Virus genome (UHGV): UHGV-0242293
DNA: 15,761 nt
Direction: 5' to 3' (one strand)
Origin: a virus
The notes beneath the pieces are model-generated. The model did not search any database. It was not told the origin of the DNA and saw nothing but the letters and a program-made list of their open reading frames with translations. The position numbers and the translations under genes are program-made. Positions 141 to 15,761 of the stretch are shown here, in pieces; within the stretch, counting starts at the first letter, position 1, and every line of letters starts with the position of its first letter.

Positions 141-409
141 CACCTTCCGTGGGGGAGCAGGTGCTGATTCTGGCCGTGGGCGGTGAACTCGACACGGCGT
201 TCGTTCTGCCGGGGATTTATTCCAGTGATAACCCCGCGCCGTCTGCGTCGGAGGATGCCCTGCATATCCGTTTCCCTGACGGGGCGGTGATTGAGTATGA
301 ACCCGAAACCAGTGCACTCACGGCAAGCGGAATTAAAACGGCCAGCGTGATGGCTTCTGATTCTGTTACTGCCACGGTGCCGGTGGTCACGGTGAAAGCA
401 TCAACCCGC
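141..409 (+). pseudogene. Inverted, diverged internal fragment of a P2-type baseplate spike gene V (codons ~63-156), no start codon
   Basis: Plus-strand translation (ORF 149..430) matches residues ~63-156 of the intact gpV encoded on the minus strand at 571-1206, with scattered substitutions (roughly 95% nucleotide identity by eye). Homology begins near 141 (caccttccgtggggga) and ends at 409 (gtgaaagcatcaacccgc). Confidence 0.75.
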
Positions 410-574
410 CTGCGGCTGGTCAATCATTGATGCCAGCAACGAGCCATAATCACGACGCATCACCCGCGAGCCGACCGGTGTACGCAGGATATCGCCGATA
501 CTCTGGCTGATATGCTCAAGGTCAGTGACAGTCAGGCCATCACTGCGATTCATTCCGAGATAACGCGCTGTCAT
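401..574 (-). pseudogene. W: Truncated baseplate wedge gene W: 55 codons of P2 gpW-like N-terminus, then 2 foreign codons and a stop
   Basis: Minus-strand translation from the ATG at 574 reads MTARYLGMNRSDGLTVTDLEHISQSIGDILRTPVGSRVMRRDYGSLLASMIDQPQ, matching the P2 gpW N-terminus from memory, then AG-stop. The start overlaps the V stop as ATGA. The ORF is cut off by the junction with the inverted V fragment at 409/410. Confidence 0.75.
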
Positions 575-7473: not shown

Positions 7474-7646
7474 TGTCAGGAGTCCTGAATAGTGATTAGA
7501 GGAGTCACATGTCGGCATCAGTTTCCCGACGATACGCATCCTCCGCCATCAGTCCCGGATGGCTTATCACTGACACAACAGCACCTTAGCGAATCGCGGG
7601 GCGCGACTCAGTAGCCTTGCCGTGTATTCATCACGGCGAGGTATTC
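7474..7646. promoter_or_regulatory. Divergent O/P intergenic region, expected site of the divergent late promoters
   Basis: 173-bp gap between the divergently transcribed O and P genes. In P2 the late promoters for the O and P operons lie here. I did not find an exact TGT-N12-ACA activator dyad by eye, so promoter elements are not pinpointed. Confidence 0.4.
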
Positions 7647-9419
7647 ATGACCATCACCACAGACACCACTCTTTTACACGACCCGCGTCGTCAGGCGGCG
7701 CTGCTGTACTGGCAGGGGTTTTCCGTGCCGCAGATTGCCGCCATGTTGCAGATGAAACGCCCGACGGTGCAGAGCTGGAAACAGCGCGACGGCTGGGACA
7801 GCGTTGCCCCCATCAGCCGTGTCGAAATGAGTCTGGAAGCGCGGCTGACCCAGCTCATCATCAAACCGCAGAAAACCGGCGGTGACTTCAAGGAAATTGA
7901 CCTGCTGGGACGTCAGATTGAACGACTGGCACGGGTCAACCGCTACAGTCAGACCGGCAACGAGGCAGACCTTAATCCGAACGTCGCTAACCGCAACAAA
8001 GGCGGGCGTCGCAAACCGAAAAAGAATTTTTTCAGTGACGAGGCCATCGAAAAGCTGGAGCAGATTTTCTTTGAGCAGTCTTTCGAATATCAGTTGCACT
8101 GGTATCGCGCCGGGCTTGAGCACCGCATCCGCGATATCCTGAAATCCCGCCAGATTGGCGCGACGTTTTATTTTTCCCGCGAGGCGCTGCTGCGCGCCCT
8201 GAAAACCGGTCATAACCAGATTTTTCTGTCGGCCAGTAAAACGCAGGCGTATGTGTTCCGCGAATACATCATCGCCTTTGCCCGGCTGGTTGACGTTGAC
8301 CTGACCGGTGACCCGATTGTCCTGGGCAATAACGGCGCAAAACTGATTTTTCTCGGCACCAACTCCAACACCGCACAGAGCCATAACGGCGACCTGTACG
8401 TCGACGAGATTTTCTGGATCCCGAATTTTCAGGTACTGCGTAAGGTGGCATCAGGTATGGCCTCACAGAGTCACCTGCGCTCGACCTATTTCTCCACCCC
8501 GTCCACGCTGGCGCACGACGCCTACCCGTTCTGGTCGGGTGAACTGTTCAACCGGGGACGCGCCAGCGCCGCCGAACGCGTGGAAATCGACGTCAGTCAT
8601 AACGCCCTTGCCGGAGGTCTTCTCTGTGCGGACGGCCAGTGGCGGCAGATTGTCACCATTGAGGACGCCCTGAAAGGCGGCTGCACGCTGTTCGACATTG
8701 AGCAGCTCAAACGTGAAAACAGCGCCGACGATTTTAAAAACCTGTTCATGTGTGAATTTGTTGACGACAAGGCGTCGGTGTTCCCGTTCGAGGAGCTGCA
8801 ACGTTGCATGGTCGACACGCTGGAAGAATGGGAAGACTATGCGCCGTTTGCCGCAAATCCGTTCGGCTCCCGCCCGGTATGGATTGGTTACGACCCGTCA
8901 CACCGTGGCGACAGCGCCGGATGCGTGGTACTGGCACCGCCGGTGGTGGCCGGTGGCAAATTCAGAATACTTGAGCGTCACCAGTGGAAAGGCATGGACT
9001 TTGCCACCCAGGCGGAATCCATCCGCAAACTCACCGAAAAATATAACGTTGAATACATCGGGATTGATGCCACCGGCCTCGGTGTCGGCGTGTTCCAGCT
9101 CGTGCGCTCGTTCTATCCCGCCGCGCGCGATATCCGCTACACGCCGGAAATGAAAACCGCAATGGTGCTCAAGGCAAAAGACGTTATCCGCCGTGGCTGT
9201 CTGGAATATGACGTCAGCGCCACCGACATCACCAGCTCGTTTATGGCTATCCGCAAGACCATGACCAGCAGCGGACGCAGCGCCACCTATGAGGCCAGCC
9301 GCAGCGAGGAAGCCAGCCACGCCGATCTCGCCTGGGCGACTATGCACGCCCTGTTAAATGAGCCACTCACCGCCGGTATCAGCACCCCGCTGACATCCAC
9401 CATTCTGGAGTTTTACTGA
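7647..9419 (+). CDS. P: Terminase large (ATPase) subunit gpP
   Basis: Start at MTITTDTTLLHDPRRQAALLYWQGF (ATG 7647, SD ggcgagg upstream) gives 590 aa, matching P2 gpP; the track ORF starts 10 codons earlier. Confidence 0.92.
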   Translation: MTITTDTTLLHDPRRQAALLYWQGFSVPQIAAMLQMKRPTVQSWKQRDGWDSVAPISRVEMSLEARLTQLIIKPQKTGGDFKEIDLLGRQIERLARVNRYSQTGNEADLNPNVANRNKGGRRKPKKNFFSDEAIEKLEQIFFEQSFEYQLHWYRAGLEHRIRDILKSRQIGATFYFSREALLRALKTGHNQIFLSASKTQAYVFREYIIAFARLVDVDLTGDPIVLGNNGAKLIFLGTNSNTAQSHNGDLYVDEIFWIPNFQVLRKVASGMASQSHLRSTYFSTPSTLAHDAYPFWSGELFNRGRASAAERVEIDVSHNALAGGLLCADGQWRQIVTIEDALKGGCTLFDIEQLKRENSADDFKNLFMCEFVDDKASVFPFEELQRCMVDTLEEWEDYAPFAANPFGSRPVWIGYDPSHRGDSAGCVVLAPPVVAGGKFRILERHQWKGMDFATQAESIRKLTEKYNVEYIGIDATGLGVGVFQLVRSFYPAARDIRYTPEMKTAMVLKAKDVIRRGCLEYDVSATDITSSFMAIRKTMTSSGRSATYEASRSEEASHADLAWATMHALLNEPLTAGISTPLTSTILEFY

Positions 9420-10438
9420 TGAGTAAGAAAAAAGGGAAAACACCGCAGCCAGCGGTGAAAACAATGACTGCCAGCGCCCCGAAAATGGAGGCATTCACCT
9501 TTGGTGAGCCGGTGCCGGTACTCGACCGCCGTGATATTCTGGATTACGTCGAGTGCATCAGTAACGGCAGATGGTATGAGCCACCGGTCAGCTTTACCGG
9601 TCTGGCAAAAAGCCTGCGTGCTGCCGTGCATCACAGCTCACCGATTTACGTTAAACGCAATATTCTGGCTTCAACGTTTATCCCGCACCCGTGGCTGTCC
9701 CAGCAGGATTTCAGCCGCTTTGTGCTGGATTTTCTGGTGTTCGGTAATGCGTTTCTGGAAAAGCGTTACAGCACCACCGGTAAGGTCATCAGACTGGAAA
9801 CCTCACCGGCAAAATATACCCGCCGTGGCGTGGAGGAGGATGTTTACTGGTGGGTGCCGTCCTTCAACGAGCCGACAGCCTTCGCGCCCGGCTCCGTGTT
9901 TCACCTGCTGGAGCCGGATATCAATCAGGAGCTGTACGGCCTGCCGGAATATCTCAGCGCCCTTAACTCTGCCTGGCTGAATGAGTCGGCCACGCTGTTC
10001 CGCCGCAAGTATTACGAAAACGGCGCTCATGCCGGATACATCATGTATGTCACCGATGCCGTGCAGGATCGCAACGATATCGAAATGCTTCGCGAAAACA
10101 TGGTTAAGTCGAAAGGCCGCAACAACTTTAAAAACCTGTTTCTCTATGCCCCACAGGGGAAAGCCGACGGCATTAAAATTATCCCCCTCAGTGAAGTGGC
10201 GACGAAGGACGATTTTTTTAATATCAAAAAAGTCAGCGCCGCAGATCTCCTGGACGCACACCGCATCCCCTTTCAGTTGATGGGCGGTAAGCCGGAGAAT
10301 GTCGGGTCACTAGGAGATATTGAAAAAGTGGCAAAGGTCTTTGTCCGCAATGAACTCATTCCATTACAGGAGAGAATAAAGTCAATAAATGAATGGTTAG
10401 ATATGGAAGTAATAAAATTCCTTGATTATAACTTATAA
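9419..10438 (+). CDS. Q: Portal protein gpQ
   Basis: 339-aa ORF (MSKKKGKTPQPAVKTMTASAPKMEAFTFGEP...) matching P2 gpQ; start overlaps the P stop (TGATG). The last ~15-30 codons are AT-rich, suggesting the 3' end was remodelled by the adjacent insertion. Confidence 0.88.
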   Translation: MSKKKGKTPQPAVKTMTASAPKMEAFTFGEPVPVLDRRDILDYVECISNGRWYEPPVSFTGLAKSLRAAVHHSSPIYVKRNILASTFIPHPWLSQQDFSRFVLDFLVFGNAFLEKRYSTTGKVIRLETSPAKYTRRGVEEDVYWWVPSFNEPTAFAPGSVFHLLEPDINQELYGLPEYLSALNSAWLNESATLFRRKYYENGAHAGYIMYVTDAVQDRNDIEMLRENMVKSKGRNNFKNLFLYAPQGKADGIKIIPLSEVATKDDFFNIKKVSAADLLDAHRIPFQLMGGKPENVGSLGDIEKVAKVFVRNELIPLQERIKSINEWLDMEVIKFLDYNL

Positions 10439-10449
10439 GTAAATATATA

Positions 10450-10478
10450 AAGTTGGCGGAATGCAATCCCGCCAACTT
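10450..10478. terminator. Perfect 10-bp hairpin between convergent Q and the retron effector gene; candidate bidirectional terminator
   Basis: aagttggcgg-(9 nt loop)-ccgccaactt read directly from the sequence, lying between the Q stop (10438) and the minus-strand effector stop (10481), with A/T-rich flanks on both sides. Confidence 0.5.
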
Positions 10479-10480
10479 AA

Positions 10481-11188
10481 CTATATATACTTCCTTTTTA
10501 CTCTACTTAATTCTATCACTGATGAGGAGTGACAAAATGACAAATTAATAGTATCGATATAATCCAAAATTTGACTCTCAACCTCAATAAAAATATTTTT
10601 GGGCCCATTACTAATCGATATACCGATTTCATCCAAAACAGCCATCATTTTTCTCTGATGAGTTTTATATTTATAGTCTTTATTTTCCTCTGTAATATGT
10701 GCATTGGCTTCCTCAATAACACATTTGATTCTAGATATTATTTCTAGATAATCTCTCGAAACAGATATATCACCGCCTTGCGCTTCAGGGAACATAACCC
10801 TATACCATCTAAAAAAATTAACTTTCTCTGGATAGATGCTACTTCTTTTAGTTAACTCAGCACTTGCAAATTCTCTAAACATCGTCAGATGACTAGTGTA
10901 ATTACTATTATTATTATTTTTAACTCCAGCGTTATATGTCATCAAAGCAATCATAACACCAAAAACGGTAACAAAAGTTGTTATAAGCCATCCAAACGCC
11001 TGAAAATACATTACTATACCAGATGTTTTTTCCGCAAAAAATTTTAAGCACTGGCTATCGAAGCATATATCACGCTCATATAGCTTTTCATTCTGAATAG
11101 TTTCAAAAAGAGAAATTAGCGAAAAAATCAAAAAAAGAGCTGACGACACACCGACAATATATTTGAGAAGTCTAATATTTGCATTCAT
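10481..11188 (-). CDS. Retron-associated effector: two N-terminal transmembrane helices plus a ~150-aa soluble C-terminal domain of unknown function
   Basis: 235-aa ORF. Hydrophobic stretches LLKYIVGVSSALFLIFSLISLF and IVMYFQAFGWLITTFVTVFGVMIALMTY. Its ATG overlaps the RT stop as ATGA (11185-11188), indicating translational coupling. AT-rich, unlike the phage backbone. Confidence 0.75.
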   Translation of the reverse strand: MNANIRLLKYIVGVSSALFLIFSLISLFETIQNEKLYERDICFDSQCLKFFAEKTSGIVMYFQAFGWLITTFVTVFGVMIALMTYNAGVKNNNNSNYTSHLTMFREFASAELTKRSSIYPEKVNFFRWYRVMFPEAQGGDISVSRDYLEIISRIKCVIEEANAHITEENKDYKYKTHQRKMMAVLDEIGISISNGPKNIFIEVESQILDYIDTINLSFCHSSSVIELSRVKRKYI

Positions 11189-12375
11189 AATGGTTTTAAA
11201 GATGCCAATCTAGATTTAAAACACTCCAGTTTTTCTTTAAATGATTCAGAGCGAGTAAGAATAATCATCTTATATTTCGTCAAATCATATTTTCTTTTAT
11301 ACCAATGTTTATTTTGATTACCTTTCGAATACGACAACTCTAAACTTTTTATAGCTGCATCAATCACAGCAACATCTCTTTTAGATGGCATCGGTTTTAT
11401 TGCCTGCAACTGTTTCTTGAATGATTCATATTTTTCATGCGCAACACGGCCAAGCTTATTCACTCTCCCCATACATCTATTGAATTCTTTTCTGTATGCA
11501 ACACTTGTTTTTGTGTTATTTTTTGCCGCCAGTAATTTCAAATTATGTATAGATGCCCTGATTCTTTTGACTTCATCGGATGGTAGTCGAGGTGAGTCAT
11601 AGTCAACTCTTAAACCATGTACTTTTATAGGTTCAGATGAACAGTGAAATATTTTAGTTTTGCGCTTATTTATCGGCAAGTCATGCTCAGAAAGCATCCT
11701 CTCTATATGGCTTTGCATTTGAGAAAAATCATAATTACTTATTTTAGATGACACGGTAATATCATCTACCAAACGCGTATAAACAAGTCCTTTCCTCTGC
11801 GCACGTCTTACCACATCCCCTTCAACAGCGAATAAACACAAAGTTGCTATATAGCTTGATGTTAAGGCCCCCTGTACGACAAAATCATCCTTAGTACATA
11901 TATCCACCAAGTATTCAAGAGCCTCATCCTTAATATGCAATATCTCCTCAAACACGCTCCTAACCAGATCTCTATGGATATTATCGAAAAAATTACTTAT
12001 ATCCACCTTGAGAACTGTTTTTGCTCCACAATGAGCCTTTGCACATGAAACATAGTCACGTTTGACATTAGAATTTAAAACATCATTTTTACTGGGAACT
12101 GAACCAAACAAAAATGAAGGAAAAACAACCAATTCCTTAAAGATACGTTTATTAATTCTACTCTGTAATAATCTCATTTTAGGATGCAGGGAGTAGACAA
12201 TCCGTTTGCTTCCGTCAATTTTGGGAATTTCTTTTAGAGTATATTTCTCATCTAATGGTAATTCTGCAATAGCTTTAAGCTCTTCAACAGAAATCGATAA
12301 AGCCTTTGACAACTTTTCAAGTGTTGTGATAGGAGCATTGGATTTGCTGTATGGTTTAAATTTATCCATAAACAT
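11185..12375 (-). CDS. Retron-type reverse transcriptase
   Basis: RT motifs in the translation: LKVDISNFFDNI (motif A), QGALTSSYIATLCLF (motif B), YTRLVDDITV (YxDD active site), NKRKTKIF, then KVHGLRV where retron RTs have the VTG signature. Block-by-block similarity to retron Ec86 RT from memory. Start is uncertain: 12375 or 12369 is favoured by alignment, but 12411 and 12459 are in frame. Confidence 0.85.
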   Translation of the reverse strand: MFMDKFKPYSKSNAPITTLEKLSKALSISVEELKAIAELPLDEKYTLKEIPKIDGSKRIVYSLHPKMRLLQSRINKRIFKELVVFPSFLFGSVPSKNDVLNSNVKRDYVSCAKAHCGAKTVLKVDISNFFDNIHRDLVRSVFEEILHIKDEALEYLVDICTKDDFVVQGALTSSYIATLCLFAVEGDVVRRAQRKGLVYTRLVDDITVSSKISNYDFSQMQSHIERMLSEHDLPINKRKTKIFHCSSEPIKVHGLRVDYDSPRLPSDEVKRIRASIHNLKLLAAKNNTKTSVAYRKEFNRCMGRVNKLGRVAHEKYESFKKQLQAIKPMPSKRDVAVIDAAIKSLELSYSKGNQNKHWYKRKYDLTKYKMIILTRSESFKEKLECFKSRLASLKPL

Positions 12376-12443
12376 ACCATTCAAATTCAAAGTTACGTAC
12401 GGTCTTCCCATACTCAAGGGTGGAACAGCAGAGATGCTTACAT

Positions 12444-12593
12444 CAACAATTGTCAGCAACAGCCTCTGCTATCTTTCGACCGTACGTAATGTCGTCGGCT
12501 ACGGCACCATCGTAGTTGACGACGGTGGGGCCTCGCTGATAGGTCCATAGTGGACGCTTTTTTGTAAAAGCAAAAACTGACAATTTAATGTTG
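12444..12593 (-). ncRNA. Candidate retron msr-msd non-coding RNA
   Basis: Immediately upstream of the RT on the same strand. An interrupted inverted repeat (minus strand caacaTTAAattgtcag at 12577-12593, and ctgacaattgttg at 12444-12456) brackets ~120 nt. Inside are stem-loops gcttttacaaaaaagc, gtccactatggac, and a longer imperfect hairpin gtcgtcaactacg/cgtagccgacgac. Boundaries and the branching G are not determined. Confidence 0.4.
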
Positions 12594-12646
12594 TTGACTG
12601 CCGCATACCAAGCGAATCGCTGGTGCGCTAAGAATAATGCAACAAA

Positions 12647-12676
12647 AAAATAAGAATTTCAACCGGGTAACTGCAA
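12647..12676 (-). promoter_or_regulatory. Candidate sigma70 promoter for the retron ncRNA-RT-effector operon
   Basis: On the minus strand: TTGCAG (12676-12671), an 18-nt spacer, then TATTTT (12652-12647), about 50 nt upstream of the proposed a1 repeat. Confidence 0.35.
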
Positions 12677-12700
12677 GCCAGCGACATCGTTTAGCGCGCA

Positions 12701-12719
12701 GTGCTTTCCCCGCCTCGCC
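12701..12719. other. P2-type cos site (19-nt cohesive end)
   Basis: The minus strand reads GGCGAGGCGGGGAAAGCAC, which is the P2 cohesive-end sequence as I recall it, followed by TGCGCGCT. It lies between the terminase/portal genes and the tin/old-equivalent locus, as expected. Confidence 0.8.
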
Positions 12720-12742
12720 CGCCCGCTTCATGGGGCGGTTTT
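12719..12742 (+). terminator. GC-rich hairpin plus T-tract next to cos; possible intrinsic terminator
   Basis: ccgccc-(8 nt)-gggcgg followed by tttt on the plus strand. It abuts the cos core, so it may instead be part of the packaging site. Confidence 0.3.
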
Positions 12743-12925
12743 AATGCAGTAGCATGACCACTCAACTAGCGCGCCAGTCCTGATGTCGCCAGGCAGTTAT
12801 TGTTCTCTGACTTGCGTGCGCTTCGATGCAGAGTAATGCACTTCCTGAATTGCTCGCATTCGCATCGTTATCATGATAGAAAACAGGTAGTTATTTGTGC
12901 GCAACTTAAGAAGAAATCACTAATT

Positions 12926-14470
12926 ATGAAAAAGATTTATGAATTAACTACTGGTAGAGCGCTTAAGTATTTTCTGCAGCATGATTCATACACTACTCTG
13001 GAGCTACCCAGTTATGTCGATTTTTCTTCCTTGCTTGAAGAAATCAACTCCGCGATAGATGAAGGTAAAATCAACTTCCAACCTGACTCCAAGTCATTGA
13101 TGGGGAAGAATATAAATTACGAGGTTTTAGTCAGCAAAGATGGCTTATATAGCTGGCGACGAATAACACTAATTAATCCTCTGTACTACGTGTATTTTTG
13201 TAAACTTATTACATCCCCTTCCAACTGGAAGGCTATAAAGAATAAATTTAGAGAGTTTGAGTCTAATGATCTTTTTTTATGCTCAAGTACCCCAGTGAGC
13301 AAAAAGAACACCTCAAACGTAGCTGCATCTGTTTTAAACTGGTGGGAAGATTTTGAACAAAAAAGTCTTTCATTGGCTCTTGAGTATGAGTTCATGTTCA
13401 GCACAGATATTTCAAACTTCTACCCTTCTATTTACACTCATAGCTTTGAATGGGTATTCATCTCAAAAGAAGAGGCCAAAAAGAAAGAAAATAACAATAA
13501 CCCAGGACGATTGATTGACACTCATATCCAGATGATGATGAGTAATCAGACAAACGGAATACCATTGGGTAGTACGTTGATGGATACATTTGCCGAATTA
13601 ATTTTAGGCGAAATTGATTTACAGCTAAGAAAAAAAACTGAAGAGCAAAAAATAACGGATTACAAAGTAGTTCGCTACAGAGATGATTATCGAATATTTT
13701 CAAGCAGTAAAGATGATTTGGACAAAATCTCAAAGTGTTTGGTTGAGGTCTTAGGTGAGTTTGGGCTTGATTTAAACTCAAGAAAAACAGAACTACATGA
13801 CGACATCATTCTTCACTCTCTTAAATCAGCAAAAAAAGAATATATTATAGAAAGGTCGTTCAACTCCCTACAGAAAATGTTGTATGCAATATATTTATTT
13901 TCTTTAAAACATCAAAACTCCAAAATTACAGTTAGATATTTAAATGATTTCTTGCGAAAATTATTTAGGAAGAAAAAGATCACAAATAGTGGGCATCAAC
14001 TAGATGCAATGCTTGGAATTATTTCAAGCATCATGGCTAAAAACCCAACCACCTACCCAGTGGGAATGGCTATTTTCGCAAAACTCTTGACCTTCCTTTA
14101 TGACGACGATGAACTCAAATTTGGCAAGTTACAACAACTTCATTGTAAACTAGGTAAACAACCAAATACTGAAATGTTAGATATTTGGTTTCAACGAGTT
14201 CAAGGGAAGATACACACACAATGGGAAGGCGATTACAAAACAGCCCTATGTCAACGCATAAATGATGAACTCAAGGGAAAAAAAACATTTACCATTGATG
14301 GCCTGTGGGATGTAGAGTGGATTCCGGGCTCAGCCAAAAGTAAAAACAAACAGAAAATACTATCAATTTTGAAAAAAACAAAAATTGTGGATTTAGATGC
14401 ATTCGAAGAAATGGATAATGATATTACACCAGAAGAAGTGAACTTATTCGACAAGGAACACAGCGCTTAA
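12926..14470 (+). CDS. Abi-like reverse transcriptase (proposed Abi-P2 / UG-Abi class) with a C-terminal alpha-helical domain
   Basis: 514-aa product from the ATG at 12926 (the track ORF begins in GC-rich cos-proximal DNA at 12800). RT motifs FSTDISNFYPSIYTH, GIPLGSTLMDTFAELIL, VVRYRDDYRIF (YxDD), GLDLNSRKTEL; the C-terminal ~200 aa lacks RT motifs. No VTG motif, and no obvious structured ncRNA or partner gene. It sits where P2 carries tin/old, where Abi-P2 RTs have been reported. Confidence 0.8.
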   Translation: MKKIYELTTGRALKYFLQHDSYTTLELPSYVDFSSLLEEINSAIDEGKINFQPDSKSLMGKNINYEVLVSKDGLYSWRRITLINPLYYVYFCKLITSPSNWKAIKNKFREFESNDLFLCSSTPVSKKNTSNVAASVLNWWEDFEQKSLSLALEYEFMFSTDISNFYPSIYTHSFEWVFISKEEAKKKENNNNPGRLIDTHIQMMMSNQTNGIPLGSTLMDTFAELILGEIDLQLRKKTEEQKITDYKVVRYRDDYRIFSSSKDDLDKISKCLVEVLGEFGLDLNSRKTELHDDIILHSLKSAKKEYIIERSFNSLQKMLYAIYLFSLKHQNSKITVRYLNDFLRKLFRKKKITNSGHQLDAMLGIISSIMAKNPTTYPVGMAIFAKLLTFLYDDDELKFGKLQQLHCKLGKQPNTEMLDIWFQRVQGKIHTQWEGDYKTALCQRINDELKGKKTFTIDGLWDVEWIPGSAKSKNKQKILSILKKTKIVDLDAFEEMDNDITPEEVNLFDKEHSA

Positions 14471-14569
14471 CGAAACAATGTTATTAACTCAACATGACTT
14501 CGTTAAGCATTAAAGCGAACAGTCATATGAAATTTCGACATCCCTAACGCCTCGCAAGCTCGTTGTTCA

Positions 14570-14614
14570 CCCCCGCCAGCACTGAAAGCGAGTTTCAGCG
14601 TCGACGGGGTTTTC
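14570..14614 (+). terminator. Candidate intrinsic terminator downstream of the Abi-like RT
   Basis: Imperfect GC-based hairpin (ccccg...ctgaaa-gcgag-tttcag...cgggg) followed by ttttc, about 100 nt after the RT stop. Confidence 0.4.
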
Positions 14615-14635
14615 TATGGTCAACGTGGTGACAGA

Positions 14636-14854
14636 TTATGGGCACGCGTGAAGGTAGAAATATGGACGGTTGGGATTATTGATTTCTCCCATACGGCTGC
14701 AGTTATCACTGACGATCTCAGTCCCTCCGACCAACTCGTAGAGGGTCAGATTCTCTTTGACCATAATTTGTAAACAATAGCCATCAGCCGCAGACTCTTG
14801 CACGAGTACAATGGCGGAACCGGACGCATAGCTAGTAATGTATGCATTAGTCAT
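14636..14854 (-). CDS. Hypothetical small protein (~72 aa)
   Basis: ORF 14636..14896; the internal ATG at 14854 has a GGAAG Shine-Dalgarno 9 nt upstream. Balanced amino-acid composition and ~50% GC. No family recognised. Confidence 0.35.
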   Translation of the reverse strand: MTNAYITSYASGSAIVLVQESAADGYCLQIMVKENLTLYELVGGTEIVSDNCSRMGEINNPNRPYFYLHACP

Positions 14855-14957
14855 AATGACATGCTTCCAAAGCAAGATCGCCACGCAGTTCCGCATGATC
14901 CATCAGTTGCTGATACCAACCATCAAATGGAAGCAAAATCAACCATTTCAATCATTT

Positions 14958-15119
14958 TTATATGTTTGTTGAGAATCCCGGCCACTCATCAGCGACCGGA
15001 TACGTGAATTTTTCCCCGTCATAATTTACGGTCGCGCCACGCGCCAGCGCCTCAAGCTCCCATCGCTGTGGCCTGATACCGTTCTGAGCAAGGTCAACGC
15101 GGATACGGGTAATTTGCAT
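14958..15119 (-). CDS. Hypothetical small protein (53 aa), not in the ORF track (below 60 aa)
   Basis: Hand translation of the minus strand: MQITRIRVDLAQNGIRPQRWELEALARGATVNYDGEKFTYPVADEWPGFSTNI. Lies 61 nt upstream of the previous ORF on the same strand. No family recognised. Confidence 0.3.
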   Translation of the reverse strand: MQITRIRVDLAQNGIRPQRWELEALARGATVNYDGEKFTYPVADEWPGFSTNI

Positions 15120-15188
15120 TCGTTCCGACCGGGTCAGTCTGGCCGATGGCGCTATTTCATGCGGTTTTAACGGGCTTCCGTTTCTTTG

Positions 15189-15208
15189 CTGACATCGTGT
15201 TATGTCAG
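15189..15208. promoter_or_regulatory. Perfect 7-bp inverted repeat with a 6-bp spacer; candidate operator in a divergent intergenic region
   Basis: CTGACAT-cgtgtt-ATGTCAG read directly, about 70 nt upstream of the minus-strand 53-aa ORF and about 60 nt upstream of the plus-strand ORF at 15269. Confidence 0.3.
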
Positions 15209-15268
15209 TTTACTGGATACAGGGCAAGTGAATGCCCCTTTCCATGAATTAGATTAAAGGCTTGCAAA

Positions 15269-15472
15269 ATGAACAATAACAGTAAGAAAACTTTGAGTAA
15301 GAAAAGAACCAAGAAAGCCAAAAAGAAGTCGCTTACCCCTGAACAAAAAGCATTGCAAGCAGAACAAGCAGCAAAAAAAGCGCAAATTATAGAGAATAGG
15401 CGCTCTATTACAGCTCATGCTATTAATCTTTTTCAGCAATATACAGCACTCCGTAAAAAAGGATTGTCGTAA
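15269..15472 (+). CDS. Hypothetical small, very basic, Lys-rich protein (67 aa)
   Basis: ORF with an AAAGG Shine-Dalgarno 8 nt upstream of the ATG. Product MNNNSKKTLSKKRTKKAKKKSLTPEQKALQAEQAAKK... AT-rich context. Confidence 0.4.
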   Translation: MNNNSKKTLSKKRTKKAKKKSLTPEQKALQAEQAAKKAQIIENRRSITAHAINLFQQYTALRKKGLS

Positions 15473-15761
15473 ATGCCACTCTATAGCACTATCTTTTATA
15501 TGTATCTCGCAGACAGGGCATACAATAAGCCCCATAGATGTTACAGGTAGCTTTTTGCCACCGATTAAGCGTAATGTATTTGCATTCTGGTTATGTACTT
15601 TCTTTTGGTTCCTAACAATGAAACAATCAGAAGCGTGGAAACTCGCGACTGATGAAGAATCTAGTATGACTTTTTTAAGCAATCAGTACATAAGTCCATT
15701 AACATCACACGAACCCAATAATGAAATATCTCTTATCATGGATGGAACGGATATAGCCATT

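What the first reader, a model, noticed from the sequence alone, without database searches (positions are those of the whole stretch)
10440..14620. Two different RT-based modules flank the cos site in one prophage
A retron-like RT and an Abi-like RT lie within ~0.6 kb of each other on opposite sides of cos, divergently oriented, each in its own AT-rich block with its own terminator-like hairpin. This suggests two independent acquisitions at the genome ends. Whether they act independently or together is an open question.
Basis: inference. Interest (0 to 1): 0.6.

Follow-up and report, generated by a model that had tools for sequence, protein, structure and literature searches.

The report
Retron Ec48 and Abi-P2 flanking P2 cos
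Two already-characterised reverse-transcriptase anti-phage systems, retron Ec48 (Retron-Eco6) and Abi-P2, sit as separate cargo on either side of the packaging (cos) site of a P2-like prophage, in a published defence hotspot where this exact pairing has already been noted.

Summary
The window carries a P2-like prophage that is 100% identical over 10300-14900 to phage pro147. A 19-nt cos sequence identical to phage P2's lies at 12701-12719.

On the portal (Q) side is a complete type IV retron, retron Ec48 (Retron-Eco6). It comprises a covariation-supported ncRNA (12393-12489), an RT with the LVDD box (11185-12369) and a two-transmembrane effector (10481-11188), all on the minus strand. On the replication-gene (A) side is an intact Abi-P2 polymerase (12926-14470, plus strand). 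It is 99.5% identical in DNA to P2-EC58 orf544.

The two are separable modules:
- Of 5426 complete E. coli genomes, 57 carry the retron, 64 carry this Abi-P2 allele and 42 carry both.
- Each also occurs with other partners or with an empty slot.
- 46 of 48 type IV retron loci in other species keep the effector, and none has Abi-P2.

Both systems, the hotspot (Odegrip 2006; Rousset 2022) and this exact neighbourhood (Sharifi & Ye 2021; Rousset Table S5A) are published. I found no test of functional cooperation between them and no evidence for it. Verdict: real, correctly read, already known, low interest.

The parts
9419..10438 (+). Portal gene Q (context). Its last ~25 codons, from about 10378, belong to the AT-rich retron cargo block.
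   Evidence: Pfam Phage_portal. Homology to retron-free P2-like prophages stops at 10377. The C-terminal tail is recoded and 5 aa shorter than in P2 (339 vs 344 aa).
10450..10478 (.). Terminator-like hairpin between the convergent Q and 2TM effector genes.
   Evidence: 13-bp stem, 6 GC pairs, 3-nt loop. Sequence read.
10481..11188 (-). [quoted passage not shown]
   Evidence: PADLOC 2TM_IV 4e-85. NCBIfam equivalog retron_Ec48_2TM, 226.7 bits vs cutoff 65. Hydrophobic segments at about residues 5-32 and 58-86. Annotated WP_000993280. The gene overlaps the RT stop by 4 nt.
11185..12369 (-). Retron Ec48 (Retron-Eco6, type IV) reverse transcriptase, 394 aa from the annotated start. An alternative ATG lies at 12375.
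   Evidence: PADLOC RT_IV 1e-176. Pfam RVT_1. The catalytic box reads LVDD, as in the title of Mao et al. 1996. The DD pair becomes D216/D217 of Millman et al. if numbering starts at the upstream Met.
12393..12489 (-). Retron msr-msd ncRNA. a1 is 12478-12489 and a2 is 12393-12404. The putative branching G is 12477. The inferred 48-nt msd template is about 12405-12452.
   Evidence: Perfect 12-bp inverted repeat followed by G. Fold z=-5.0. The same three-helix architecture sits 4-37 nt upstream of the RT in type IV retron loci of other genera, with compensatory changes: 91.9% of cells paired vs 33-52% for slid controls, and 0/500 shuffles reached the observed value. The branch point and msd limits are inferred, not shown.
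12634..12662 (-). Sigma-70-like promoter candidate for the retron operon (TTGAAA, 17 nt, CATTAT).
   Evidence: Consensus scan, 9/12 matches. The number of such sites in the region is no higher than in shuffles, so this is only a candidate.
12693..12762 (.). Conserved cos core, the only sequence between the two cargo slots that is shared with other P2-like prophages. The 19-nt cohesive-end sequence is at 12701-12719 (minus strand).
   Evidence: Exact match to the P2 cosL/cosR annotation, and alignment to the circularised P2 ends.
12926..14470 (+). Abi-P2 polymerase (514 aa), the P2-EC58 orf544 allele.
   Evidence: PADLOC AbiP2 5e-160. 99.5% nt identity to AM157368, P2-EC58. Colinear with PDB 7R08, the P2-EC30 Abi-P2, E=7e-258; YRDD, Tyr30 (= priming Tyr61) and the helical C-terminal domain are retained.
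14571..14615 (+). Terminator-like hairpin plus U-run downstream of Abi-P2.
   Evidence: Fold -21 kcal/mol, z=-2.0. The simple terminator scan missed it because of its long, structured loop.
14636..14896 (-). Small ORF (ORF85 of P2-EC58) that travels with Abi-P2 allele a only. Function unknown.
   Evidence: PHROG 13272, E=2e-54, unknown function. Annotated in AM157368 and pro147. Absent from allele-b loci, where the Abi-P2 to A gap is only about 105-122 nt. PGAP does not annotate it in EC9.
14958..15193 (-). 3' end of replication gene A, the right border of the hotspot. It is truncated in this window.
   Evidence: Matches 'replication endonuclease' in L001 up to 15193 and then diverges.

Best explanation
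The region is the cos-proximal cargo hotspot of a P2-like (Peduovirus, pro147-type) prophage. It holds two autonomous, previously characterised abortive-infection modules.

(1) Q side: retron Ec48 (Retron-Eco6, type IV). A structured ncRNA of about 97 nt is reverse-transcribed by the LVDD RT into a 45-48-nt msDNA. According to Millman et al., the RT-msDNA complex monitors RecBCD. When a phage inhibitor such as lambda Gam or T7 gp5.9 disables RecB, the two-transmembrane effector kills the cell.

(2) A side: Abi-P2, in the position that old and tin occupy in phage P2. This RT-like enzyme forms trimers. It makes untemplated DNA that is covalently primed on its own tyrosine, and it aborts infection; T5 exclusion was shown for the orf570 allele.

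The two modules were brought in separately, by recombination in the conserved flanks (Q 3' end, 70-bp cos core, A 3' end). They are expressed from the lysogen and protect it against other phages, each on its own.

Basis of each step:
- Shown here: gene identities, intactness, ncRNA structure, cos position, cargo boundaries and independent assortment.
- Taken from the literature: the defence mechanisms.
- Inferred: branch point, msd limits, promoters, and the recombination route.
For: Identities:
- PADLOC, NCBIfam and Pfam hits.
- 100% identity to phage pro147 and to EC9, where the 2TM gene is annotated 'retron Ec48 family effector'.
- LVDD box and D216/D217 numbering.
- 99.5% nt identity to P2-EC58 orf544, and colinearity with PDB 7R08 including YRDD and the priming Tyr.

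ncRNA:
- 12-bp a1/a2 plus G, and covariation across 27 loci.

cos and slots:
-. In P2 itself the Q-cos gap is empty and old/tin sit on the other side.

Independence:
- 57, 64 and 42 genomes.
- Alternative partners.
- 46/48 type IV retron loci elsewhere keep the 2TM gene, and 0/48 have Abi-P2, Q or P within 3 kb.
- 16 of 21 Abi-P2 viral loci lack the retron.

Literature:
- Hotspot between gpA and gpQ with 1,650 arrangements, retrons included (PMC9122126). Its Table S5A lists WP_001605760 + WP_050516365 + WP_000993280.
- Ec48 mechanism (bioRxiv 10.1101/2020.06.21.156273).
- Abi-P2 biochemistry (PMC9508834).
- T5 exclusion (review PMC8632793).
Against: - No expression or phenotype data exist for this window.
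- Defence by the orf544 allele specifically was not documented in anything I could read. T5 exclusion is reported for orf570, the allele that was crystallised. Its alignment looks about 80% identical; that figure was read by eye and not computed.
- One review says it is unclear whether other elements of the Abi-P2 locus are needed.
- The retron and an Abi-P2 allele co-occur far more often than chance: 45 of 57 retron loci, and Fisher p~1e-64 for allele a. Independence of function is therefore not proven by distribution alone.
- The window's prophage copy is truncated in gene A. The element may be defective here, although the defence genes would not need a viable phage.
Confidence: 0.9

Rival explanations
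1. The two RT modules are functionally coupled or synergistic. The pairing is kept by selection, for example because their phage spectra or escape routes complement each other, or because Abi-P2's untemplated ssDNA interacts with the RecBCD-guarding retron. On this view the pairing is not just physical linkage.
For: - 42 of 57 Ec48 loci carry Abi-P2 allele a and 3 more carry a 74.5%-identical allele b.
- An Ec48 plus allele-b combination is also present in IMG/VR (L081).
- Abi-P2 alleles a and b are in only about 75 of about 2,100 genomes that have this P2 junction.
- Fisher p~1e-64.
- One review notes that it is unclear whether Abi-P2 needs other locus elements.
Against: - The slots are only 70 bp apart in the prophage. 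Tight linkage and the clonal spread of one pro147-like lineage (>=99.9% identity among the listed matches) predict the same enrichment.
- Alleles a and b share flanking homology, so allele exchange does not need a separate acquisition.
- Both modules also persist without the other.
- Type IV retrons in 48 other species never have Abi-P2 nearby.
- Ec48 alone is fully protective when cloned.
Confidence: 0.1
2. The two RTs form one obligate two-RT system, analogous to DRT3 (UG3 + UG8 with an ncRNA).
For: - Two RT genes lie within 0.6 kb with a structured ncRNA between them.
- Abi-P2 scores against Drt3b models (PADLOC 4e-39; NCBIfam 117 bits).
Against: - Drt3b and Drt3a scores are far below the family cutoffs (117 vs 350 bits; 40 and 32 vs 200 bits) and far below the AbiP2 and RT_IV scores.
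- The genes are divergent and separated by cos.
- Each occurs without the other.
- The ncRNA architecture co-varies with the retron RT in loci that lack any second RT.
Confidence: 0.02
3. One or both modules are decayed remnants in a defective prophage and have no current function.
For: - In this window gene A is cut at 15193 and the contig ends contain inverted or scrambled P2 fragments.
- Some related loci do carry frameshifted copies (L072, L073, L085; B7A's shorter Abi-P2).
Against: - All three ORFs here are full length and identical to reference proteins present in dozens of genomes.
- Catalytic motifs, the priming Tyr, the TM helices and the ncRNA stems are intact.
- Defence genes do not depend on phage viability.
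Confidence: 0.03

Closest known systems
Retron Ec48 = Retron-Eco6, type IV retron (Mao et al. 1996/1997; Millman et al. 2020; Mestre et al. 2020)
   Same: - Same genes: RT with the LVDD box and the 2TM effector, with >=99% DNA identity across 57 E. coli genomes.
- The reference Ec48 RT is listed at E. coli DE147 LFQP01000005 as a 1191-nt gene, the same length as pro147 ORF31.
- ncRNA-RT-effector order with overlapping genes.
   Different: Nothing detectable at sequence level. The msDNA and the RecBCD-guard phenotype were not tested here.
Abi-P2 of P2-like coliphages (Odegrip et al. 2006; Figiel et al. 2022, PDB 7R08)
   Same: - 99.5% nt identity to P2-EC58 orf544.
- Same position next to cos on the gene A side (the tin/old 'TO' region).
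- YRDD, priming tyrosine and helical domain are conserved.
   Different: It is the orf544 allele. The alignment to orf570 of P2-EC30, the allele crystallised and shown to exclude T5, looks about 80% identical (read by eye, not computed). I found no functional data for this allele.
P2 cos-proximal defence hotspot between gpA and gpQ (Rousset et al. 2022)
   Same: - Same locus.
- Their Table S5A lists this gene arrangement and Table S5B lists a type IV retron with a 2TM protein.
   Different: The paper treats gpA-gpQ as one hotspot. Here the hotspot resolves into two slots that abut a 70-bp cos core and vary independently. This is a refinement, not a new phenomenon.
Phage P2 old and tin exclusion genes
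   Same: Same slot and orientation as Abi-P2: transcribed from near cos towards gene A. Same role, lysogenic-conversion genes that exclude other phages.
   Different: Unrelated proteins. In P2 the Q-cos gap is empty: 167 nt holding only the tQ terminator.
DRT3 (UG3 + UG8 two-RT system)
   Same: Two RT-family genes in one locus with an ncRNA.
   Different: - The family models do not reach their cutoffs.
- The genes here are separable and divergent.
- The ncRNA belongs to the retron alone.

Membership tests
Type IV retron (Retron-Eco6 / Ec48) | RT belongs to the retron type IV clade | tested here: met
   PADLOC RT_IV E=1e-176 over 2-385 of 386 profile positions. The next best hit, RT_V, is 1e-62.
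Type IV retron (Retron-Eco6 / Ec48) | Unusual LVDD in place of YxDD in the catalytic box (title of Mao et al. 1996) | tested here: met
   The sequence reads YTRLVDDITV. L200, V201, D202 and D203 are invariant or nearly invariant in 22 homologues.
Type IV retron (Retron-Eco6 / Ec48) | Adjacent ncRNA with terminal inverted repeats a1/a2 and a G at the end of the a1 stem | tested here: met
   12-bp perfect a1/a2 with G12477, 23 nt upstream of the RT start. There are compensatory changes in 20 of 22 pairs across 27 loci. Helix 1 was used to pick the loci; helix 2 was not.
Type IV retron (Retron-Eco6 / Ec48) | Downstream or overlapping effector with two transmembrane helices | tested here: met
   NCBIfam equivalog NF038235, 226.7 bits (cutoff 65). 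PADLOC 2TM_IV 4e-85. Two hydrophobic segments. The effector is conserved in 46/48 homologous loci.
Type IV retron (Retron-Eco6 / Ec48) | General retron-RT motifs NAxxH and VTG (recalled from the retron literature, not checked in a source here) | tested here: inconclusive
   The corresponding positions read CAKAH and VHG. C109, H113, H251 and G252 are invariant in 22 type IV homologues. This looks like a clade-wide variant rather than decay.
Type IV retron (Retron-Eco6 / Ec48) | Production of 2'-5' branched msDNA of 45-48 nt, and cell death triggered by RecBCD inhibition | not testable with these tools
   Reported for Ec48 by Mao 1997, Palka 2022 and Millman 2020. Needs wet-lab work.
Abi-P2 (Abi/UG class RT-like polymerases) | Sequence membership of the Abi-P2 family | tested here: met
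   PADLOC AbiP2 5e-160 over 4-487 of 489; the next hit, Drt6, is 4e-47. phmmer to PDB 7R08 gives E=7e-258 over residues 1-508. 99.5% nt identity to P2-EC58 orf544.
Abi-P2 (Abi/UG class RT-like polymerases) | Y(R/V)DD active site and the priming tyrosine (Tyr61 of P2-EC30 Abi-P2) | tested here: met
   YRDD is at residues 251-254. Tyr30 aligns with chain residue 61 of 7R08.
Abi-P2 (Abi/UG class RT-like polymerases) | C-terminal helical domain in place of a thumb | tested here: met
   Gap-poor alignment to the full 7R08 chain through residue 508. No structure was predicted here.
Abi-P2 (Abi/UG class RT-like polymerases) | Template-independent protein-primed DNA synthesis, and phage T5 exclusion | not testable with these tools
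   Shown for the P2-EC30 allele. Not shown for this allele in anything I could read.
P2-type cos site | 19-nt cohesive-end sequence and flanking core shared with P2 | tested here: met
   Identical 19-mer. 70 nt align to the circularised P2 ends.
DRT3 (two-RT system) | Drt3a and Drt3b family membership and obligate adjacency | tested here: not met
   NCBIfam Drt3b 117 bits vs cutoff 350; Drt3a 40 and 32 bits vs 200. The two genes occur apart.

The most novel reading that the evidence does not exclude
The recurrent pairing of retron Ec48 with Abi-P2 is maintained by selection because the two abortive-infection systems cooperate. The pairing covers 45 of 57 retron loci and involves two Abi-P2 alleles that are only 74.5% identical. 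Cooperation could mean covering each other's escape mutants, or Abi-P2's untemplated ssDNA feeding into the RecBCD-monitoring retron. If so, the cos-flanking pair would be a functional two-RT defence unit rather than two linked passengers.
Probability: 0.08. Interest if true: 0.5.

Novelty: already known. Interest (0 to 1): 0.12.

Why it matters
It matters little as a discovery. Both systems, the hotspot and this exact neighbourhood are published.

Its value is as a clean worked example. A P2-type phage carries defence cargo in two independently exchangeable slots that abut a 70-bp cos core. One exchange breakpoint lies inside the portal gene's 3' end.

The one open point is whether the strong Ec48/Abi-P2 co-occurrence is only linkage. 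This is cheap to test with single and double deletions in a pro147-type lysogen.

Tried and rejected
- Rfam scan of 10000-15761 at E<=1 found nothing. The type IV retron ncRNA matched no Rfam 15 family, so I defined it by comparative analysis instead.
- I considered a longer ncRNA bounded by the imperfect repeat 12489-12500 / 12676-12687. I rejected it because it is absent from the fold of the full intergenic region and has no counterpart in homologous loci, whereas the compact structure is conserved.
- I first recalled Ec48 as 'Retron-Eco4'. The literature shows it is Retron-Eco6.
- I tried to read Mao et al. 1997 and Odegrip et al. 2006 directly; neither is held. The msDNA sequence and the orf570/orf544 experiments are therefore cited second-hand.
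- The supplements of Palka et al. 2022 hold no Eco6 ncRNA sequence.
- The ORFs at 12206-12550(+) and 12585-12731(-), and pro147 'ORF32', overlap the ncRNA or cos. I treated them as spurious.
- I considered DRT3-like coupling and rejected it (see the membership test).
- I did not run structure prediction or fold search, because a solved structure of a close homologue exists (7R08).

Full report
**Observation**

The window is a piece of a P2-like prophage. ORF listing and family searches show large terminase P (7617-9419, +) and portal Q (9419-10438, +). Two AT-rich blocks follow, with GC 0.30-0.38 against 0.52-0.63 for the backbone.

- The first block holds an RT ORF on the minus strand (11185-12459; annotated start 12369) that overlaps a downstream 235-aa ORF (10481-11188).
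- The second block holds a plus-strand RT-like ORF (12800-14470; annotated start 12926).
- Between them, at 12701-12719 on the minus strand, lies GGCGAGGCGGGGAAAGCAC. This is identical to the annotated cosL and cosR of phage P2, and about 70 nt around it align to the circularised P2 ends.
- The two start codons are 556 bp apart and the genes diverge from cos.
- A 13-bp hairpin sits between Q and the 235-aa gene (10450-10478). A GC-clamped hairpin with a U-run follows the second RT (14571-15).

**Identity of the Q-side module**

- The RT scores 1e-176 against the PADLOC type IV retron RT model. The downstream protein scores 4e-85 against 2TM_IV. It also passes the NCBIfam equivalog 'retron Ec48 family effector membrane protein' (226.7 bits, cutoff 65).
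- The effector has two hydrophobic segments at about residues 5-32 and 58-86. This matches the delta-3-85 deletion that Millman et al. used to remove both helices.
- The catalytic box reads LVDD, the peculiarity named in the title of Mao et al. 1996 for the Ec48 RT. With the upstream Met as residue 1, the aspartates become the D216/D217 that Millman et al. mutated.
- Ec48 is Retron-Eco6, type IV in the Mestre classification.

**The ncRNA**

Rfam has no match, so I defined the ncRNA comparatively.

- Just upstream of the RT is a perfect 12-bp inverted repeat, TTACGTACGGTC / GACCGTACGTAA (12478-12489 and 12393-12404). It is followed by a G and encloses 73 nt that fold into a long and a short hairpin (z=-5.0).
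- I collected 48 loci encoding RT homologues of 41-57% identity, one genome per species. Most show an inverted repeat of 10-14 bp with different sequence, the same 69-78-nt interior and the same distance to the RT.
- An alignment of 27 of them gives three helices, with compensatory changes in 20 of 22 pairs. 91.9% of cells are paired, against 33-52% when partners are slid, and no shuffle of 500 reaches the observed values.
- Caveat: helix 1 was the criterion for picking coordinates. Helix 2 was not, and it covaries as strongly.
- The branching G (12477) and the 48-nt template (about 12405-12452) are inferred from the general retron mechanism and the reported msDNA length.

**Identity of the A-side module**

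- The 514-aa protein scores 5e-160 against PADLOC AbiP2.
- It is 99.5% identical in DNA to the P2-EC58 'ORF544' record from ECOR58.
- It aligns end to end with PDB 7R08, the Abi-P2 of P2-EC30 (E=7e-258).
- YRDD is present. Tyr30 aligns with chain residue 61, the tyrosine whose Phe substitution abolishes protein-primed synthesis.
- Figiel et al. show that Abi-P2 is a trimer that makes untemplated DNA. [quoted passage not shown]

**Anatomy of the junction**

Comparison with P2-like prophages that carry other cargo shows that only 12693-12762 is shared between the two blocks.

- Homology on the Q side stops at 10377.
- Homology on the A side resumes at 14967.
- The cargo blocks are therefore 10378-12692 and 12763-14966, and both abut a 70-bp cos core.
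- The left breakpoint is inside Q. The last ~25 codons are homologous to P2 gpQ but recoded in AT-rich codons and 5 residues shorter. This suggests that the retron arrived together with the Q tail of a more AT-rich P2 relative.
- In phage P2 itself the Q-cos gap (167 nt) holds only a terminator. old and tin occupy the Abi-P2 position in the same orientation.

**Do the modules belong together?**

Counts in 5426 complete E. coli genomes:

| Feature | Genomes |
|---|---|
| Retron block | 57 |
| This Abi-P2 allele | 64 |
| Both, contiguous | 42 |

Other A-side partners of the retron:
- a 74.5%-identical Abi-P2 allele (3 genomes);
- a DUF7380 gene (6 genomes);
- an AAA ATPase;
- a stretch with no annotated gene.

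Abi-P2 also occurs with an empty Q side or with an unrelated 334-aa gene.

Further evidence of separability:
- In IMG/VR, 5 of 21 Abi-P2 loci have the retron and 16 do not. Some of the 16 are outside any recognisable P2 context.
- Among 48 type IV retron loci in other species, 46 keep the 2TM effector and none has Abi-P2, Q or P within 3 kb.

The modules are thus separable. The co-occurrence is nevertheless far above chance (Fisher p~1e-64). Two things predict this without any functional link. The slots are 70 bp apart in the prophage. The listed matches among the 42 are nearly identical (>=99.9%), consistent with the spread of one pro147-like lineage. I rate selection for cooperation as possible but unlikely.

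**Comparison with the literature**

- The gpA-gpQ region is the 'TO' variable locus of Odegrip et al. 2006. It is also the cos-proximal defence hotspot of Rousset et al. 2022: 1,650 arrangements in 18,150 loci, retrons included.
- Rousset's Table S5A lists 'RVT_1 + RVT_1 + hypothetical: WP_001605760 + WP_050516365 + WP_000993280'. Two of these are the accession numbers of the proteins in this window. Table S5B lists the type IV retron.
- Sharifi & Ye 2021 state that the neighbourhood of the reference Ec48 retron (E. coli DE147) contains an AbiP2 RT 99% identical to P2-EC58 CAJ43157, plus Q and gpA.
- The whole region is 100% identical to phage pro147.

Nothing here is new. The two-slot resolution and the breakpoint inside Q are small refinements.

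**Verdict**

- The interpretation (two different RT-based defence modules, acquired independently) is supported.
- Novelty: already known.
- Interest: low (0.12).
- The only open question is whether the frequent pairing reflects cooperation. Single and double knock-outs and a phylogeny-aware co-occurrence test would settle it.

Noticed in passing
window 141-422 vs 747-1028: There is a 282-nt inverted repeat, 94% complementary, within the baseplate V/W region. The left arm is an inverted, diverged copy of gene V sequence that is absent from the otherwise colinear EC9 prophage (L001). It looks like a join with a second P2-like prophage or a contig-end assembly chimera.
   Followed up: partly
window 15186-15761: After 15193 the window leaves gene A, of which only the last ~78 codons remain. 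It continues with fragments of an HNH-endonuclease cargo gene from another P2-like hotspot (E. coli PEC41, L003). The fragments are in ascending L003 order, with gaps between them. The second (15465-15611, = L003 6634-6488) is inverted; 15186-15465 (= L003 6001-6280) and 15609-15761 (= L003 6828-6980) are forward. No complete E. coli genome matches this end. It is either a real complex rearrangement or a mis-assembly.
   Followed up: partly
window 10378-10438 (3' end of Q): The portal protein's C-terminal ~25 residues are homologous to P2 gpQ but recoded in AT-rich codons and 5 aa shorter (339 vs 344 aa). The retron cargo block therefore begins inside an essential structural gene. It presumably came from a more AT-rich P2 relative.
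   Followed up: partly
window 12491-12523 (minus strand), directly 5' of a1: A 13-bp imperfect hairpin lies immediately upstream of the retron ncRNA. A 39-nt stretch covering it is 85% identical at the same position in the Xenorhabdus and Buttiauxella type IV retron loci (L018, L019). Its function is unknown; it could be a leader, a processing site or a regulatory element.
   Followed up: no
window 12405-12423 (minus strand); alignment A2 columns 82-103: The short hairpin next to a2 (CCCUUGAGUAUGGG) is the most sequence-conserved part of type IV retron ncRNAs across Gamma- and Betaproteobacteria. It lies where the reverse-transcribed msd should begin. Conservation is unusual for a retron's template region.
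   Followed up: no
window 14636-14896 (minus strand): This 86-aa ORF (ORF85 of P2-EC58; PHROG 13272, unknown function) accompanies Abi-P2 allele a. It is absent from allele-b loci and PGAP does not annotate it in EC9. The adjacent 14544-14620 also occurs next to other hotspot cargo, for example a SIR2 gene.
   Followed up: partly
E. coli records (e.g. NZ_AP027694, NZ_CP135719, NZ_LR890508): Many 'complete' E. coli chromosomes in RefSeq begin at position 1 with the P2 replication gene A, so the hotspot falls at about 2.3-6.8 kb. The assemblies were apparently rotated to start at this prophage gene rather than at dnaA.
   Followed up: no
L072, L073, L085 (IMG/VR) and L011 (E. coli B7A): Some related loci carry truncated or frameshifted Abi-P2 or 2TM genes, for example a 1389-nt Abi-P2 CDS in B7A. 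Decay of these cargo genes does occur in other lineages.
   Followed up: no
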